A stretch of 11,080 nucleotides of DNA from a virus, in UHGV virus genome UHGV-0230593, one strand, 5' to 3'. The position numbers and the translations under genes were made by a program. Below the pieces are notes generated by a model. It had not been told where the DNA came from. It made no database searches and was given only the letters and a program-made list of their open reading frames with translations. Positions within the stretch are counted from its first letter, which is position 1; each line of letters begins with the position of its first letter. Shown piece after piece: positions 1 through 6,266 of this stretch.

Positions 1-5
1 AGGCT

Positions 6-161
6 ATGAAGCAGCAAAAGGCGATGTTAATCGCCCTGATCGTCATCTGTTTAACCGTCATAGTGACGGCACTGGTAACGAGGAAAGACCTCTGCGAGGT
101 ACGAATCCGAACCGGCCAGACGGAGGTCGCTGTCTTCACAGTCTACGAACCTGAGGAGTAA
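6..161 (+). CDS. hokD: Hok/Gef-family type I toxin (small membrane-killing peptide), HokD/RelF-like
   Basis: ATG at 6, TAA at 159-161; 51-aa translation MKQQKAMLIALIVICLTVIVTALVTRKDLCEVRIRTGQTEVAVFTVYEPEE has the single hydrophobic TM segment plus conserved C-terminal Cys and charged tail typical of Hok peptides; I recall it as near-identical to K-12 Qin HokD. The upstream mok/sok regulatory region would lie left of the window. Confidence 0.85.
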   Translation: MKQQKAMLIALIVICLTVIVTALVTRKDLCEVRIRTGQTEVAVFTVYEPEE

Positions 162-230
162 GAGACCAGGCGGGGGAGAAATCTCCAGCCACCTCTGATG
201 TGTCAGGCATCCTCAACGCACCCGCACTTA

Positions 231-250
231 ACCCGCTTCGGCGGGTTTTT
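231..250 (+). terminator. Rho-independent terminator downstream of hok
   Basis: Hairpin CCCGC(232-236)-TTCG-GCGGG(241-245) followed by TTTTT (246-250). Confidence 0.7.
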
Positions 251-262
251 GCATTAGTCTGG

Positions 263-294
263 TTGACAAAAACAGGAAAATGCGAAAATATAAG
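263..294 (+). promoter_or_regulatory. Putative sigma70 promoter for the 327..2061 operon
   Basis: TTGACA at 263-268 (perfect -35), then A/T-rich candidate -10 hexamers (AAATAT / TATAAG, 286-294) at 17-20 bp spacing, about 35 bp upstream of the ATG at 327. The -10 assignment is ambiguous. Confidence 0.35.
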
Positions 295-326
295 GTTTAC
301 GAATTCTAAAAAAAGCGAAACTTGAA

Positions 327-977
327 ATGAATGAAAATCAGTTAGCTCCTTGTTGGGAATTTCAACCTTATCTTGCTGAAAGCAATGTTCGCCAGTTGTT
401 GGCGGAGATCGCTAACGTACTTGAGCAGTTGTACTATCATAAGCACGTATTAGACAGCAACTGGTCTGAAGGTGTAAGGGCTTATGATTGGGTCAGAAAC
501 CATCTTATTCAAAATGAAGGCGCAATTCCTGGTCTTAAGATGATTTCCAAGGGGTTGGACTATGTAGTTGCTTTAAATAAAGTTCCGCTACAATTTACCA
601 AAGATTGCATTAATAACCCCAAAAAGAAACATCGCCTGCGTCGAAATAAAGTAGAGCATGAGCAGCTTTCATTGTTTGGTGATGTTGAGGCTGAGCAAGA
701 TATTACATGGCGAGTCATAGCGGAGCCATTTTTATCCGAAGAGGGAGATGGTGAATTAGAGTCCACACTGCCTCGTTGGGAGGTGGCTCTTGTTGGGTTT
801 AATATCTATGGTGCTCAGATTAGTATGGTTTCTCATCAATCTACAGCATCAATGCCACTTATGCCCCTTGACGGTAACACACTCCCTGGCGAAGCGGAGA
901 TTAATAAGGTGTCTCTTCGTCGGCGTACGAAGGATAAAATTTTGGATGTGAGCAGTAATGGAACATCAGGTGAATAA
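327..977 (+). CDS. Hypothetical protein, 216 aa, no family recognised; first gene of a two-gene cargo module
   Basis: ATG at 327, TAA at 975-977; uninterrupted ORF in a ~40% GC region flanked by ~52-55% GC prophage DNA; its last 20 nt overlap the start of the next gene (likely translational coupling). Contains an R-N-x3-H motif (RRNKVEH, nt 639-659). Confidence 0.7.
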   Translation: MNENQLAPCWEFQPYLAESNVRQLLAEIANVLEQLYYHKHVLDSNWSEGVRAYDWVRNHLIQNEGAIPGLKMISKGLDYVVALNKVPLQFTKDCINNPKKKHRLRRNKVEHEQLSLFGDVEAEQDITWRVIAEPFLSEEGDGELESTLPRWEVALVGFNIYGAQISMVSHQSTASMPLMPLDGNTLPGEAEINKVSLRRRTKDKILDVSSNGTSGE

Positions 978-2061
978 CTTCACTGAGTATCGAGGCGATA
1001 AGCTCAAACTAGCAAGAATGGCTGTTGGGCTTTCATGTGAAGAGTTGGCCGAAAAAATTGGCAAAACAAAACAATTCGTTAGCAAATTGGAGAAGGGATT
1101 TAGGCCATCAGAGCAATGCCTGGAGTTAATAGCCTCAGCTCTTATGATTAAGCCCGATTTTCTATTTACTGAGCGAAAATATGCTCTGGAAAGCGATGTT
1201 TGCCATTTTCGGAGTAAGAAGTCCAGGACTCAAACGCTGACTAATAGTGTCTTGGCCAGGGCTGAGATTCTTAATATTATAATTTCTGCTGTTGAAGGTG
1301 AAATCGAATTCCCTGATGTCAACATACCAGAGCACCCAGGAACTGAATTACTTACCCCGAATGATATTGAGCGAGTGGCAGAAGATTGTCGCCGTGCATG
1401 GAATCTAGGTCTTGGCCCTATATCATCAATGGTGAAATTGGCGGAGAGTTTGGGGGTAATCGTTGCGCATGTTACGGGAGTCGATGATCGTGTTGATGCA
1501 TTCACTGTTCACAATAACAGGCCTGTTATTATCAGGAACAATGTAAAAAAAAGCATATGTAGATTTCGCTCTGATTTAGGTCATGAGTTAGGGCATTTAG
1601 TAATGCATGAGGGCATAACTACTGGTGATAAACTTACGGAATCACAAGCTGATCACTTTTCTAGCGCCTTATTGGTTCCTAGGCTATCTTTCATTAAAGA
1701 ATTTCCACGAATACGAGGTAAGCAATTCGATTGGAGTGCTCTGGTTGAATTTAAGCTTAGATGGAAAATTAGCCTTAAAATGTGTATTTATCGAGCCAGT
1801 GCATTAGGACTATTGACCCAGGAACAGGCAAGAACTGGCTATATGCATCTTAATTCTAGAGGGTACACGAGAGTTGAACCAGGTGATGAACTTTTGCGCC
1901 ACGAAGAACCAAGTATGCTGTCCGAAGCGATTGACATGCTGGATGATGCAACTTGGTTAAGAATTCTTATGAAAACTGGCTTGAGTCAAGATTTAATTCG
2001 TGAGTTGTTCTCCATCAATCGACCTATTACAAATCCAAGAAATATTTTTCAGATTGTTTGA
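958..2061 (+). CDS. Fused XRE-family HTH / ImmA-IrrE (COG2856-type) zinc metallopeptidase, 367 aa
   Basis: ATG at 958 overlapping the upstream ORF; N-terminal HTH_3-like segment (LARMAVGLSCEELAEKIGKTKQFVSKLEKG...); central HEXXH motif HELGHLVMHEG (nt 1582-1596) in a context typical of ImmA/IrrE peptidases; stop TGA 2059-2061. The true start could be an internal Met (M21). Confidence 0.8.
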   Translation: MEHQVNNFTEYRGDKLKLARMAVGLSCEELAEKIGKTKQFVSKLEKGFRPSEQCLELIASALMIKPDFLFTERKYALESDVCHFRSKKSRTQTLTNSVLARAEILNIIISAVEGEIEFPDVNIPEHPGTELLTPNDIERVAEDCRRAWNLGLGPISSMVKLAESLGVIVAHVTGVDDRVDAFTVHNNRPVIIRNNVKKSICRFRSDLGHELGHLVMHEGITTGDKLTESQADHFSSALLVPRLSFIKEFPRIRGKQFDWSALVEFKLRWKISLKMCIYRASALGLLTQEQARTGYMHLNSRGYTRVEPGDELLRHEEPSMLSEAIDMLDDATWLRILMKTGLSQDLIRELFSINRPITNPRNIFQIV

Positions 2062-2066
2062 GCATA

Positions 2067-2090
2067 CCCGCTACGGCGGGTTTTGTTTTT
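2067..2090 (+). terminator. Rho-independent terminator after the HTH-peptidase gene
   Basis: Hairpin CCCGC(2067-2071)-TACG-GCGGG(2076-2080) followed by TTTTGTTTTT; almost the same hairpin as the hok terminator at 231-250. Confidence 0.7.
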
Positions 2091-2163
2091 TCCGGGCTTT
2101 TTGGTTTACAATCCGCACGCCAGCCTGAACAACTGGCACCTGCTGCGCCAGCAGAGAAAAACG

Positions 2164-2442
2164 ATGGCGCACAATACCAAATCACACAATTCTGATAATT
2201 CAGCCGTCTTTGCCAGCAGGCACGGGCGGCGTTTGCACGCATTTAAAACTCGCTGGTATCAGCACCCTCCATGCACTGAAGAACAGGCTGAATGGCTAAT
2301 TCAGAGCTACCGCAGACGTGGCTATGAGGTTCAGAAAGATCTCAGCCTCGACCGACTGCACTGGATAATCTCTGTGAGGCTCCCTTACTCCGAGCGCCCA
2401 CCGCGTCCATCCCGCACATTCCAGCAACGTATCTGGAGGTAA
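2164..2442 (+). CDS. Hypothetical small protein (92 aa) in the position occupied by rem in K-12 Qin
   Basis: ATG at 2164, downstream of the terminator and a weak AGAGAAA RBS; the 2083 start in the ORF track is a TTG inside the terminator T-run and is unlikely. Basic, His/Arg-rich product; no family recognised. Confidence 0.4.
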   Translation: MAHNTKSHNSDNSAVFASRHGRRLHAFKTRWYQHPPCTEEQAEWLIQSYRRRGYEVQKDLSLDRLHWIISVRLPYSERPPRPSRTFQQRIWR

Positions 2443-2443
2443 C

Positions 2444-3493
2444 GTGCGGGTATTACTTCGACCTGTTCTTGTGCCAGAACTCGGGCTGGTGATCGTTAAG
2501 CCGGGCCATGAATCCATGCCGGTATTCCAAAATACCCGGGTACTGGTGGAGCCGGAACCGAAAAGCATGCGTAATCTGCCGTCCGGGGTCGTTCCTGCCG
2601 TTCGCCAGCCGCTGGCGGAGGATAAATCATTACTGCCATTTTTCAGCGACGAACGAGTGATTCGTGCTGCTGGTGGCGCTGGCGCATTGTCTGACTGGTT
2701 ACTGCGCCATGTTAAATCCTGCCAGTGGCCACACGGCGATTATCACCACAGTGAAACCGTCATTCACCGTTATGGCGCTGGCGCGATGGTGTTGTGCTGG
2801 CACTGTGACAACCAGCTGCGTGACCAGACATCCGAATCACTCGGGCAACTTGCTCATCAAAACCTGTCAGCATGGATGATTGACGTCATACGCCATGCAA
2901 TGAATGGCACGCAGGAGCGGGAATTGTCGCTGGCTGAATTATCCTGGTGGGCGGTCTGCAATCAGGTGGCGGACGCGCTTCCGGAGGCAGTATTACGTCG
3001 TTCTCTGGGGTTACGTGCGGAAAAAATCCGCTCGGTGTATCGCGAAAGCGACATCATACCGGGAGAGCAGACCGCCACCAGCATACTGAAGCAGCGCACA
3101 AAAAATATTGCGCCGCCGTCTCACGCCCGCCAGCAACAGAACCCACCACAGGAAAAGACGGTGGTATGCATCACCGTTGATCCGGAGTCTCCGGAATCTT
3201 TCATGAGGCGACCTAAACGTCGCCGTTGGGTAAATGAGAAATATACGCGCTGGGTGAAGACACAGCCGTGTGCGTGTTGTGGTCAGCCAGCCGACGATCC
3301 CCATCACCTGATTGGTCACGGTCAGGGAGGGATGGGAACAAAGGCCCACGATATTTTCACGCTACCGTTGTGCCGGGAACATCACAACGAACTTCATGCG
3401 GATCCGCTGGCGTTCGAAGAAAAGCATGGTTCTCAGATTGATTTAATTTTTCGTTTTCTTGATCACGCCTTTGCAACTGGCGTGCTTGGGTAA
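2444..3493 (+). CDS. ydfU: DUF968-family prophage protein (YdfU-like), 349 aa, with Cys/His clusters
   Basis: GTG at 2444 preceded by GGAGGT (2435-2440); TAA 3491-3493. Length and position (upstream of rusA and Q) match YdfU-type proteins; C-terminal CxCC...HH...C..HH cluster (aa 276-318, nt 3269-3397). Confidence 0.75.
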   Translation: MRVLLRPVLVPELGLVIVKPGHESMPVFQNTRVLVEPEPKSMRNLPSGVVPAVRQPLAEDKSLLPFFSDERVIRAAGGAGALSDWLLRHVKSCQWPHGDYHHSETVIHRYGAGAMVLCWHCDNQLRDQTSESLGQLAHQNLSAWMIDVIRHAMNGTQERELSLAELSWWAVCNQVADALPEAVLRRSLGLRAEKIRSVYRESDIIPGEQTATSILKQRTKNIAPPSHARQQQNPPQEKTVVCITVDPESPESFMRRPKRRRWVNEKYTRWVKTQPCACCGQPADDPHHLIGHGQGGMGTKAHDIFTLPLCREHHNELHADPLAFEEKHGSQIDLIFRFLDHAFATGVLG

Positions 3494-3505
3494 AAGAGGT
3501 GACTG

Positions 3506-6093: not shown

Positions 6094-6169
6094 GGCCCTT
6101 TAGCTCAGTGGTGAGAGCGAGCGACTCATAATCGCCAGGTCGCTGGTTCAAATCCAGCAAGGGCCACCA
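6094..6169 (+). tRNA. ileZ: tRNA-Ile (anticodon CAT, lysidine-type, reads AUA)
   Basis: 76-nt cloverleaf: acceptor GGCCCTT/AAGGGCC, D-arm GCTC...GAGC, anticodon loop CTCATAA (CAT at 6127-6129), T-loop TTCAAAT, 3' CCA. Near-identical to E. coli tRNA-Ile2 from memory; same triad as the Stx-phage ileZ-argN-argO cluster. Confidence 0.85.
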
Positions 6170-6176
6170 TCACATA

Positions 6177-6253
6177 CCGCCATTAGCTCATCAGGACAGA
6201 GCGCCAGCCTTCGAAGCTGGTTGCGCGGGGGTCGGGTCCCCGATGGCGGTCCA
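6177..6253 (+). tRNA. argN: tRNA-Arg (anticodon TCG), atypical T-loop
   Basis: Acceptor CCGCCAT/ATGGCGG, D-stem GCTC/GAGC, anticodon stem CCAGC/GCTGG with loop CTTCGAA (TCG at 6211-6213), T-stem CGGGG/CCCCG with non-canonical T-loop GTCGGGT, discriminator T, CCA. Confidence 0.65.
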
Positions 6254-6266
6254 TTATCGGTATTCA

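What the first reader, a model, noticed from the sequence alone, without database searches (positions are those of the whole stretch)
231..2090. Cargo module flanked by near-identical terminator hairpins, suggesting insertion at the hok terminator
Seen in sequence: ACCCGC-TTCG-GCGGGTTTTT (231-250) and ACCCGC-TACG-GCGGGTTTT (2066-2084) are direct repeats of about 19 bp bracketing the AT-rich two-gene module. Inference: the module was acquired by insertion or recombination in or next to the hok terminator, duplicating it, which is the classic moron architecture (own promoter, own terminator, compositional contrast).
Basis: partly seen in the sequence, partly recalled or inferred. Interest (0 to 1): 0.5.

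Follow-up and report, generated by a model that had tools for sequence, protein, structure and literature searches.

The report
RosmerTA defence moron between two terminators
A two-gene anti-phage toxin-antitoxin cassette (RosmerTA) sits as an add-on gene block (a 'moron') in a swap-prone slot of an E. coli lambdoid prophage, bracketed by two look-alike transcription terminators that are a common generic design rather than proof of a duplication; this is an ordinary, if tidy, example of how prophages trade defence genes.

Summary
ACCCGCTTCGGCGGGTTTT (231-249) and ACCCGCTACGGCGGGTTTT (2066-2084) match at 18 of 19 bases and bracket an AT-rich block (41% GC; flanks 52-55%).

The block is a RosmerTA defence/toxin-antitoxin operon: rmrT (327-977) and rmrA (958-2061, HTH plus Zn-peptidase).

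50 of 86 surveyed hok-orf92 intervals are empty, each with one hairpin. Natural empty sites match a 'precise excision' construct at 99.2% over 1665 nt, ungapped. About 10 other cargo length classes use the same slot, so it is a hotspot.

The 'duplicated hok terminator' inference is not needed.
- The exact 19-mer occurs in at least 82 unrelated phage contexts and in many bacterial phyla.
- The same cassette in hok-less positions (other nin-region sites, a tail operon) still ends in its own terminator with the same stem.
- The latest gain or loss went through crossovers in hok's 3'UTR and the orf92 leader.

Verdict: a textbook moron carrying a known defence family. A modestly interesting residue is that terminator hairpins recur as in-register cassette boundaries.

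The parts
6..161 (+). hok (hokD-type) type I toxin gene, left conserved flank of the hotspot
   Evidence: Pfam HOK_GEF 2.6e-22. Annotated hokD in the identical record NZ_CP024127.
231..250 (+). hok mRNA intrinsic terminator: stem ACCCGC/GCGGGT, UUCG loop, T-run. This is the left hairpin.
   Evidence: -15.1 kcal/mol. Present after hok in empty sites and in most cargo variants.
263..291 (+). Cassette promoter-like element: TTGACA (263-268), 17-nt spacer, AAATAT (286-291), ending 36 nt before the rmrT ATG
   Evidence: Coordinates. The same TTGACA-N17-AAATAT is conserved in every hok-less context of the cassette and in the second RosmerTA subtype, L165. The generic promoter scan did not call it because the -10 is weak, so it is inferred and not shown.
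327..977 (+). rmrT, 216-aa RosmerTA toxin candidate
   Evidence: PADLOC RmrT PDLC03929 3.6e-24; phrog_5786 1.3e-81; no Pfam domain.
958..2061 (+). rmrA, 367-aa antitoxin with an N-terminal XRE-type HTH and an ImmA/IrrE (M78) Zn-peptidase domain. HExxH at aa 209 (nt 1582-1596). Overlaps rmrT by 20 nt.
   Evidence: PADLOC RmrA PDLC03943 7e-107; Pfam HTH_3 and Peptidase_M78; motif and overlap.
2066..2091 (+). Cassette terminator: stem ACCCGC/GCGGGT, UACG loop, T-rich tail. This is the right hairpin, 4 nt after the rmrA stop codon.
   Evidence: -15.3 kcal/mol. Terminators with the same stem follow rmrA in at least 6 hok-less contexts.
2085..2163 (+). Conserved leader of the right flank (TTTACAAT ... 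GCCAGCCTGAACAACTGGCACCTGCTGCGCCAGCAG), continuous with the single hairpin in empty sites
   Evidence: Its fold is not better than shuffles (z -0.85).
2164..3493 (+). Right conserved flank: 92-aa ORF (2164-2442, phrog_1212) and a DUF968/YdfU-family gene (2444-3493)
187..2173 (.). Recombinant patch: the cargo plus about 60 nt to its left and about 90 nt to its right. This patch differs from otherwise near-identical empty-site prophages and matches the cargo-bearing strain A10.
   Evidence: Mismatch positions 187, 226, 241 and 2094-2173, against 2 mismatches in the next 1330 nt (binomial P = 1e-8). A10 shares the patch variants at 226, 241, 2094, 2098 and 2113 in an unrelated backbone.

Best explanation
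The region is a moron: a self-contained transcription unit added to a lambdoid prophage. It lies in the nin region of the prophage of E. coli 14EC001, between the terminator of the hok toxin gene and the leader of a conserved 92-aa ORF/DUF968 operon.

The unit runs promoter (263-291), rmrT, rmrA, terminator (2066-2091). It encodes a RosmerTA system. By analogy with characterised members (inferred), the HTH/Zn-peptidase protein RmrA neutralises and probably autoregulates the toxin RmrT. Phage infection releases the toxin, which protects the lysogen population.

The two hairpins are two separate working intrinsic terminators. The left one ends the hok mRNA and insulates the cassette from it. The right one ends the cassette transcript and insulates the downstream operon. 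They look alike because both use a very common design: a CCCGC/GCGGG stem closed on a UNCG tetraloop. The cassette carries such a terminator wherever it goes.

The slot is a hotspot. Cassettes spread between prophages by homologous recombination in the conserved flanks (hok 3'UTR; hairpin, leader and orf92). This is shown for the latest event in this lineage. At the older assembly step, the shared hairpin most likely served as an in-register microhomology joint (inferred).
For: Cargo identity. RosmerTA was described as a defence TA with a Zn-peptidase antitoxin, and a delta-rmrA strain could not be obtained (bioRxiv 10.1101/2022.05.11.491447). RmrA is discussed as an ImmA-protease antitoxin with an HTH in PMC10440598.

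Accessory status and hotspot:
- 237 of 5426 E. coli genomes carry the cargo, while about 4770 carry the flanks.
- 50 of 86 hok-orf92 intervals are empty with one hairpin, and about 10 other cargo length classes occur.
- Other cargos include a second RosmerTA subtype, an HTH+ImmA pair and a PDC-S42 candidate.

Moron criteria (definition: PMC3594210): GC contrast, conserved promoter-like element, terminator.

The hairpin is generic.

The cassette carries its own terminator with the same stem in nin-region and tail-operon contexts, followed by unrelated downstream DNA. Distant relatives with tape-measure and gpM genes adjacent have no hairpin.

Flank-mediated exchange:
- A block of about 6 kb is near-identical to empty-site prophages except for the cargo and a hugging patch.
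- The same cargo allele and patch variants occur in the unrelated A10 backbone.
- L005 keeps a decayed rmrA 3' end next to the right hairpin under a newer cargo, which indicates serial replacement.
Against: Promoter activity, termination, toxicity and defence are untested here. The -10 element is weak, and the generic promoter scan missed it.

The in-register junctions do not distinguish 'the cargo brought its own terminator and crossed over inside the hairpin' from 'the resident hairpin was duplicated'. In these junctions the left copy is continuous with hok and the right copy with the leader.

In three hok-less contexts the cassette is also preceded by a hairpin with the same or a related stem. 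That hints at something more specific than coincidence of a generic terminator.

The direction of the latest event (gain or loss) cannot be told from the sequences.
Confidence: 0.75

Rival explanations
1. The cassette entered by an event that targets the hok terminator and duplicates it. One route is single-crossover (Campbell-type) integration of a circular cassette carrying one hairpin. Another is copy-choice template switching at the hairpin. Either would make the two hairpins a true target duplication.
For: - Empty sites have exactly one hairpin, and both copies in the window align to it. The two blast HSPs overlap by the 19 nt.
- Three cargo frames at this site have two hairpins: window/L008, L165 and L004.
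- The same cassette is preceded by a hairpin with the same or a related stem in hok-less contexts L395, L407 and (decayed) L401.
- Other mini-cassettes sit between identical hairpins: L087 and L122.
Against: - The cargo has no recombinase or transposase and no terminal inverted repeats.
- 19 bp is atypical for a target-site duplication.
- The hairpin is a generic terminator found in at least 82 unrelated contexts.
- Other contexts of the same cassette have different upstream hairpins: CTCGC stem in L400/L403 and an AT-rich one in L396.
- Several cargos at the hok site have only one hairpin (rem, L007, L006, L005).
- At the tail-operon site the hairpin appears only with cargo.
- The documented recent transfer used flank homology.
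Confidence: 0.15
2. Deletion rather than insertion. The cargo-bearing arrangement is ancestral at this slot, and the 'empty' sites arose by recombination or slippage between the two 19-bp direct repeats, which precisely excises the cassette.
For: The empty site is exactly the product expected from repeat-to-repeat deletion. Direct repeats of this length are known deletion substrates (general knowledge). The direction of the 14EC001 versus JMF1/Res13 difference is not resolved.
Against: - Empty sites are the majority (50 of 86) and are themselves diverse, with 16 distinct 60-nt sequences.
- About 10 different cargo length classes, several with unrelated gene content, occupy the slot, so no single cargo can be ancestral.
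- The nearest empty sites differ from the window in a patch extending beyond the repeats. This fits allelic replacement and not simple repeat-to-repeat deletion.
Confidence: 0.07
3. Pure coincidence. These are two unrelated generic terminators that happen to be alike and have no bearing on how the cassette got there.
For: The 19-mer is extremely widespread. The UNCG tetraloop on a GC stem is a convergent, stable design (general knowledge).
Against: - Chance expectation in the window is 0.02, yet two were found, and they are the only two in 20.7 kb of this prophage.
- The junctions are in exact register with the single hairpin of empty sites.
- Independent cargos end in the same hairpin fused to the same leader at two different hotspots.
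Confidence: 0.03

Closest known systems
Morons of lambdoid phages (HK97/HK022; Juhala et al. 2000, reviewed in Cumby et al. 2012, PMC3594210)
   Same: An extra transcription unit absent from close relatives, with its own promoter-like element, its own terminator and deviant GC, placed between conserved phage genes. The same cassette also occurs in a tail operon, as the classic morons do.
   Different: Nothing essential differs. Expression from the repressed prophage is not shown here.
RosmerTA (RmrT/RmrA) anti-phage toxin-antitoxin systems (Millman et al. 2022, bioRxiv 10.1101/2022.05.11.491447; Ernits et al. 2023, PMC10440598)
   Same: A two-gene operon with the toxin gene first. The antitoxin has an HTH, an ImmA/IrrE Zn-peptidase domain and HExxH. 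There are strong PADLOC profile matches to both proteins.
   Different: This RmrT has no Pfam domain, and I saw no obvious hydrophobic membrane segment when reading its sequence (by eye only). It therefore need not act like the membrane-depolarising Kita RmrT. Its activity is untested.
E. coli K-12 Qin prophage hokD-rem-ydfU interval
   Same: Same slot and same conserved flanks: hokD with its terminator on the left, the 92-aa ORF and ydfU/DUF968 on the right.
   Different: K-12 carries rem instead. The rem cargo has no 3' hairpin and replaces the leader promoter region, so K-12 has only the left hairpin.
Defence hotspots of P2-like phages and P4-like satellites (Rousset et al. 2022, PMC9122126)
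   Same: A fixed position between conserved phage genes that holds alternative, unrelated defence cargos in different isolates.
   Different: The phage family and the locus are different. Here the boundaries coincide with intrinsic terminators. I did not find this hok-ydfU slot described as a hotspot in the paper searches I ran, which is not an exhaustive check.
'Linker' or boundary-sequence model of module exchange in lambdoid phages (Susskind and Botstein 1978; Clark et al. 2001, HK620; cited from my own knowledge, not read here)
   Same: Short conserved sequences at module borders act as crossover points. Here the terminator hairpin is the shared right-hand border of unrelated cargos at two hotspots.
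   Different: The conserved element here is a functional terminator, so selection for termination alone could keep it. A role in recombination is inferred.
Integron gene cassettes with attC sites
   Same: Promoter-proximal cargos bounded by imperfect palindromes and exchanged among elements.
   Different: There is no integrase. The hairpin is a 16-nt terminator and not a 57-141-bp attC. The cassette has its own promoter. This is not a member of that family.

Membership tests
Moron (lambdoid phage accessory transcription unit) | Present in one phage and absent at the same position in close relatives | tested here: met
   Natural empty sites are 99.0-99.2% identical to the flank joint over 1665 nt, ungapped. 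A block of about 6 kb is near-identical around it.
Moron (lambdoid phage accessory transcription unit) | Own promoter | tested here: inconclusive
   TTGACA-N17-AAATAT at 263-291 is conserved in all contexts of the cassette. The -10 is weak and the generic scan did not call it. There are no expression data.
Moron (lambdoid phage accessory transcription unit) | Own terminator | tested here: met
   The hairpin plus T-run at 2066-2091. The cassette keeps a terminator with the same stem in at least 6 hok-less contexts.
Moron (lambdoid phage accessory transcription unit) | Base composition different from neighbouring genes | tested here: met
   41.3% GC against 52-55%.
Moron (lambdoid phage accessory transcription unit) | Expressed from the repressed prophage | not testable with these tools
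   Needs RNA data from a lysogen.
RosmerTA defence/toxin-antitoxin system | Antitoxin RmrA with a Zn-peptidase (ImmA/IrrE, HExxH) domain, usually with an N-terminal HTH | tested here: met
   Pfam Peptidase_M78 5e-11 and HTH_3 8e-9; PADLOC RmrA 7e-107; HELGH at aa 209.
RosmerTA defence/toxin-antitoxin system | Adjacent co-oriented toxin gene recognised as RmrT | tested here: met
   PADLOC RmrT 3.6e-24; 20-nt overlap with rmrA.
RosmerTA defence/toxin-antitoxin system | Toxicity neutralised by RmrA, and protection against phages | not testable with these tools
   Experimental. Shown for other family members only.
Transposon/IS-type insertion with target-site duplication | Transposase or recombinase gene, or terminal inverted repeats at the ends of the insert | tested here: not met
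   The cargo holds only rmrT and rmrA. There are no terminal inverted repeats.
Transposon/IS-type insertion with target-site duplication | The flanking direct repeat is specific to the insertion site (absent elsewhere, single in the empty site) | tested here: inconclusive
   It is single in the empty site. However, the repeat is a generic terminator, and the cassette carries one in other sites.
hok/Gef type I toxin locus (left flank) | Hok/Gef family small toxin ORF followed by a structured 3' end | tested here: met
   Pfam HOK_GEF 2.6e-22. The terminator is conserved after hok in empty sites. The upstream mok/sok part lies outside the window.

The most novel reading that the evidence does not exclude
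Intrinsic-terminator hairpins of one common design (ACCCGC-UNCG-GCGGG-Un) may act as portable, recombinase-independent joints for defence cassettes in temperate phages. Cassettes bounded by such hairpins would be captured at any resident terminator of the same sequence, by short-homology crossover or by copy-choice at the hairpin. That would leave a hairpin on each side and make the cassette precisely excisable. It would explain three observations: the same RosmerTA cassette preceded and followed by hairpins with the same stem in hok, nin and other contexts; unrelated cargos sharing the hairpin as an in-register border at two different hotspots; and mini-cassettes sitting between identical hairpins.
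Probability: 0.15. Interest if true: 0.6.

Novelty: new member of a known kind. Interest (0 to 1): 0.3.

Why it matters
It gives a function-level annotation (a RosmerTA defence system) to two genes that RefSeq lists as 'hypothetical protein' and 'helix-turn-helix domain-containing protein' in about 237 complete E. coli genomes.

It identifies the hokD-ydfU interval of Qin-like lambdoid prophages as a cargo-swap hotspot. K-12's rem sits in the same slot. Candidate new defence genes could be sought there, for example the L004, L005, L006 and L007 cargos.

It also documents, base by base, how such a cassette moves between prophages through very short flanking homology.

The caution is methodological. 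Near-identical terminator hairpins flanking a gene block are not by themselves evidence of a target duplication, because this hairpin is a ubiquitous design.

Tried and rejected
- The cargo was searched against INPHARED phages in distant mode and gave no match. Named phages gave only flank information.
- I tried to find empty-site versions of the hok-less contexts L395 and L407. Their flanks are absent from the E. coli genomes. Exact-word scans of viral contigs returned only the source contigs. The Campbell/duplication model therefore could not be tested at independent sites.
- The conserved leader 2100-2170 was folded as a possible RNA element. It is no better than shuffles (z -0.85), and there is no Rfam family in 1-2700.
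- A transposon or IS origin was rejected: no transposase and no terminal inverted repeats.
- An integron-like cassette was rejected: no integrase and no attC-sized site.
- The second half (nearest-neighbour search for the leader) was mis-registered by my own script and is disregarded.
- The generic promoter scan did not flag the cassette promoter. The promoter assignment rests on conservation only.
Full report
**1. The observation**

The window is 100% identical to a lambdoid (Qin-like) prophage of E. coli 14EC001, NZ_CP024127.
- ACCCGCTTCGGCGGGTTTTT lies at 231-250 and ACCCGCTACGGCGGGTTTT at 2066-2084.
- They form the longest direct repeat in 150-2200: 19 nt, 18 of 19 identical, spacing 1835.
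- Chance predicts 0.02 such motifs in the window.
- Both score as intrinsic terminators and fold at about -15 kcal/mol.
- The enclosed block is 41.3% GC, against 52-55% outside it.

**2. What the cargo is**

The block holds two overlapping genes.
- ORF 327-977 (216 aa) has no Pfam domain. It matches PADLOC RmrT (3.6e-24) and phrog_5786.
- ORF 958-2061 (367 aa) has an XRE-type HTH plus an ImmA/IrrE M78 peptidase domain, with HELGH at residue 209. It matches PADLOC RmrA at 7e-107.

This is a RosmerTA system. RosmerTA is a defence toxin-antitoxin family in which a Zn-peptidase protein is the antitoxin. A delta-rmrA strain could not be obtained, and one member was shown to defend E. coli against specific BASEL phages.

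Upstream lies a perfect -35 hexamer, a 17-nt spacer and AAATAT (263-291).

The flanks are hok (6-161) on the left. On the right are a 92-aa ORF, a DUF968/YdfU-family gene, RusA and a Q-like antiterminator. This is the nin region.

**3. The empty-site test**

The flanks occur in about 4,770 of 5,426 complete E. coli genomes. The cargo occurs in 237.

I surveyed 86 hok-to-orf92 intervals (E. coli loci plus IMG/VR contigs).
- 50 are empty, with an interval of 58-60 nt. Each has one hairpin: ACTTA-ACCCGCTTCGGCGGGTTTT-GTTTTTTCC. That is the left flank of the window's left copy joined to the right flank of its right copy.
- The rest fall into about 10 cargo length classes.

I then built a 'precise excision' sequence from window 1-249 plus 2085-3500. 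It finds natural loci at 99.0-99.2% identity over all 1665 nt without gaps. Both window hairpins align to the single hairpin in those loci.

K-12 Qin (rem) has only the left hairpin.

**4. A hotspot with variable boundaries**

- Two hairpins: the window type; the same cargo plus a rem-like remnant (L008); a second RosmerTA subtype (L165), whose RmrA is 32% identical and whose RmrT is unrelated; and an HTH plus ImmA/IrrE pair (L004).
- Right hairpin only: a four-gene cargo with a PDC-S42 match (L006), whose left breakpoint lies upstream of the hairpin. Also L005, where the hok hairpin is truncated and a decayed 3' end of rmrA survives next to the right hairpin. L005 is evidence of serial replacement.
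- Left hairpin only: rem, L007 and L134.

So the two-hairpin layout is one of several outcomes. The hairpin fused to the leader is the commonest right-hand border.

**5. Is the hairpin specific?**

It is not.
- Of 125 occurrences, 102 are unrelated to hok or to this window's flanks.
- They fall into 82 flank clusters, in contigs of 30-67% GC.
- It is also in at least 120 bacterial contigs, spanning Pseudomonas, Burkholderiales, Serratia, Nitrosospira, Saccharibacteria, Alicyclobacillus, Oscillospiraceae and Sphingobacterium.

A GC stem closed on a UNCG tetraloop is a convergent terminator design.

**6. The cassette in other places**

Relatives of the cassette (RmrA 90-92% identical at the protein level, about 80% at the DNA level) sit in hok-less positions.
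- Elsewhere in nin regions: L009/L396.
- After replication genes: L400/L403/L407.
- Between the tape-measure gene and minor tail gene M of a lambda-like tail operon: L401.

In all of these, homology to the window runs from about 12 nt upstream of the -35 element to the rmrA stop codon. Each cassette then ends in its own ACCCGC-loop-GCGGGT(5-7) terminator. The loops are TATAT, CATTG, TGCTT, TTCG, TGCAT and TTCAT, and the DNA beyond is unrelated.

At the tail-operon site, a different cargo of about 260 aa (L077, L052) ends in the same hairpin fused to the gpM leader. More distant relatives with the tape-measure and gpM genes adjacent have no hairpin. There the hairpin travels with cargo.

These data make the right hairpin of the window most simply the cassette's own terminator.

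**7. How it moved most recently**

The cargo-bearing prophage and the empty-site prophages of strains JMF1 and Res13 are near-identical from about -2150 to +4085 in window coordinates. Two things break that identity:
- the cargo itself;
- a cluster of differences at 187, 226 and 241 on the left, and at 2094, 2098, 2101, 2113, 2120, 2158, 2161 and 2173 on the right.

Only 2 further differences occur up to position 3500 (P = 1e-8 for the right-hand cluster).

Strain A10 has the same cargo allele (99.4%), including the TACG hairpin, in a backbone that is otherwise unrelated or 10-19% diverged. A10 shares the window's variants at 226, 241, 2094, 2098 and 2113. At 142-186 and from 2183 onward, the window instead agrees with the empty-site strains.

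The latest gain or loss was therefore an allelic replacement. The crossovers lay within about 45 nt left of the left hairpin and about 100 nt right of the right hairpin. It was not a fresh insertion at the hairpin.

**8. What remains open**

The junctions are in exact register with the single hairpin. Unrelated cargos share that border at two hotspots.

In three hok-less contexts the cassette is also preceded by a hairpin with the same or a related stem: L395 ACCCGCTTTGGCGGG, L407 ACCCGCTGTTGCGGA, and L401 in decayed form. Others have different upstream hairpins.

Small cargos between identical hairpins occur elsewhere: L087 (a 55-aa secreted peptide, 39% GC against 53%) and L122.

This is compatible with terminator hairpins acting as short-homology or copy-choice joints. 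That would be a modern version of the 'linker' idea for lambdoid module exchange (from my own knowledge). I could not test it at independent empty sites. There is no recombinase, transposase or terminal inverted repeat in the cargo.

**9. Verdict**

- Observation: confirmed.
- Interpretation: partly supported. The module is a moron inserted relative to single-hairpin relatives, at a hotspot next to the hok terminator. That the hok terminator was duplicated is not shown and is not needed.
- The system belongs to known kinds: a moron (definition in PMC3594210) and RosmerTA.
- Interest is low to moderate. The main value is annotation, the definition of the hokD-ydfU hotspot, and a caution about reading terminator look-alikes as target duplications.

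Noticed in passing
window 2085-2163 (and the same stretch in L001-L008): The leader between the right hairpin and the 92-aa ORF (TTTACAAT ... GCCAGCCTGAACAACTGGCACCTGCTGCGCCAGCAG) is conserved across most cargo variants and also occurs in hok-less contexts. It contains alternative GCCAG/CTGGC and CTGCTG/CAGCAG pairings just before the start codon. The predicted fold is not better than shuffles (z -0.85).
   Followed up: partly
L005 about 1100-1215 (and the 7 IMG/VR loci of the 724/725-nt class): A 130-aa hypothetical cargo sits where RosmerTA would be. It keeps a decayed remnant of the rmrA 3' end directly before the right hairpin, while the hok hairpin is truncated (ACCCGCTTCGGCG|TTTT). This indicates that one cargo overwrote another.
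   Followed up: partly
L401 1775-3665; L077 and L052 (reverse strand): A second cargo hotspot lies between the tape-measure and minor tail M genes of lambda-like phages. It holds RosmerTA in L401 and an unrelated ~260-aa ORF with an N-terminal signal/lipoprotein-like sequence in L077 and L052. Both cargos end in ACCCGCTTCGGCGGGTTTTTT fused to a 'TATGCCCGGAGG' leader. Similar 'hairpin + TTATGCCCGGAG' strings recur in many unrelated viral contigs.
   Followed up: partly
L087 4388-4686 (+); L122 3610-4213 (-): These are mini-cassettes between two copies of the exact hairpin. L087 has an AT-rich 280-nt insert encoding a 55-aa signal-peptide protein. L122 has a 125-aa ORF. Both look like further morons bounded by terminators.
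   Followed up: no
L239 and L240 about 8231-8249: The closest empty-site prophages carry a mutated hok terminator (ACCCGCTTCGTCGGG, which breaks the loop-closing pair). In L240 the hok ORF is annotated at only 99 nt. hok may be decaying in these lineages.
   Followed up: no
L009 4321-4486: In strain KL53 the cassette's own terminator (loop TATAT) is followed 146 bp later by an exact ACCCGCTACGGCGGGTTTT, after a DNA-methyltransferase gene remnant. Two hairpins with the same stem bracket a dead gene fragment there.
   Followed up: no
L006 716-1453; L004 708-1546; L007 about 560-920: Other cargos of the hok-ydfU slot are uncharacterised. L006 has a PDC-S42 candidate (1.7e-33) with two small ORFs. 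L004 has a split HTH plus ImmA/IrrE pair followed by about 430 nt with no annotated gene. L007 has a 351-nt AT-rich insert with no annotated gene. All are possible new defence or regulatory elements.
   Followed up: partly
window 6094-6645: Three tRNA genes (annotated Ile, Arg, Arg in the source record) are followed by a full-length match to the sRNA family STnc100 (135.7 bits). They lie downstream of a DNA-methyltransferase gene and before the late region.
   Followed up: no
window 282-300 (conserved in L009, L395-L407): The stretch GCGAAAATATAAGGTTTACGAATTC, which overlaps the -10 element, is nearly invariant in all contexts of the cassette and contains an imperfect palindrome (CGAAAAT...GTTTACG). 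It is a candidate operator for the HTH of RmrA. GCGAAAATAT recurs inside rmrA at 1173-1182.
   Followed up: no
L243 6469-10232: In O157:H16 strain 98-3133 the RosmerTA cassette and the 92-aa ORF are followed by type III effector genes (nleB2, nleC, nleH, nleF) rather than by DUF968. The backbone to the right of the hotspot has been replaced there.
   Followed up: no
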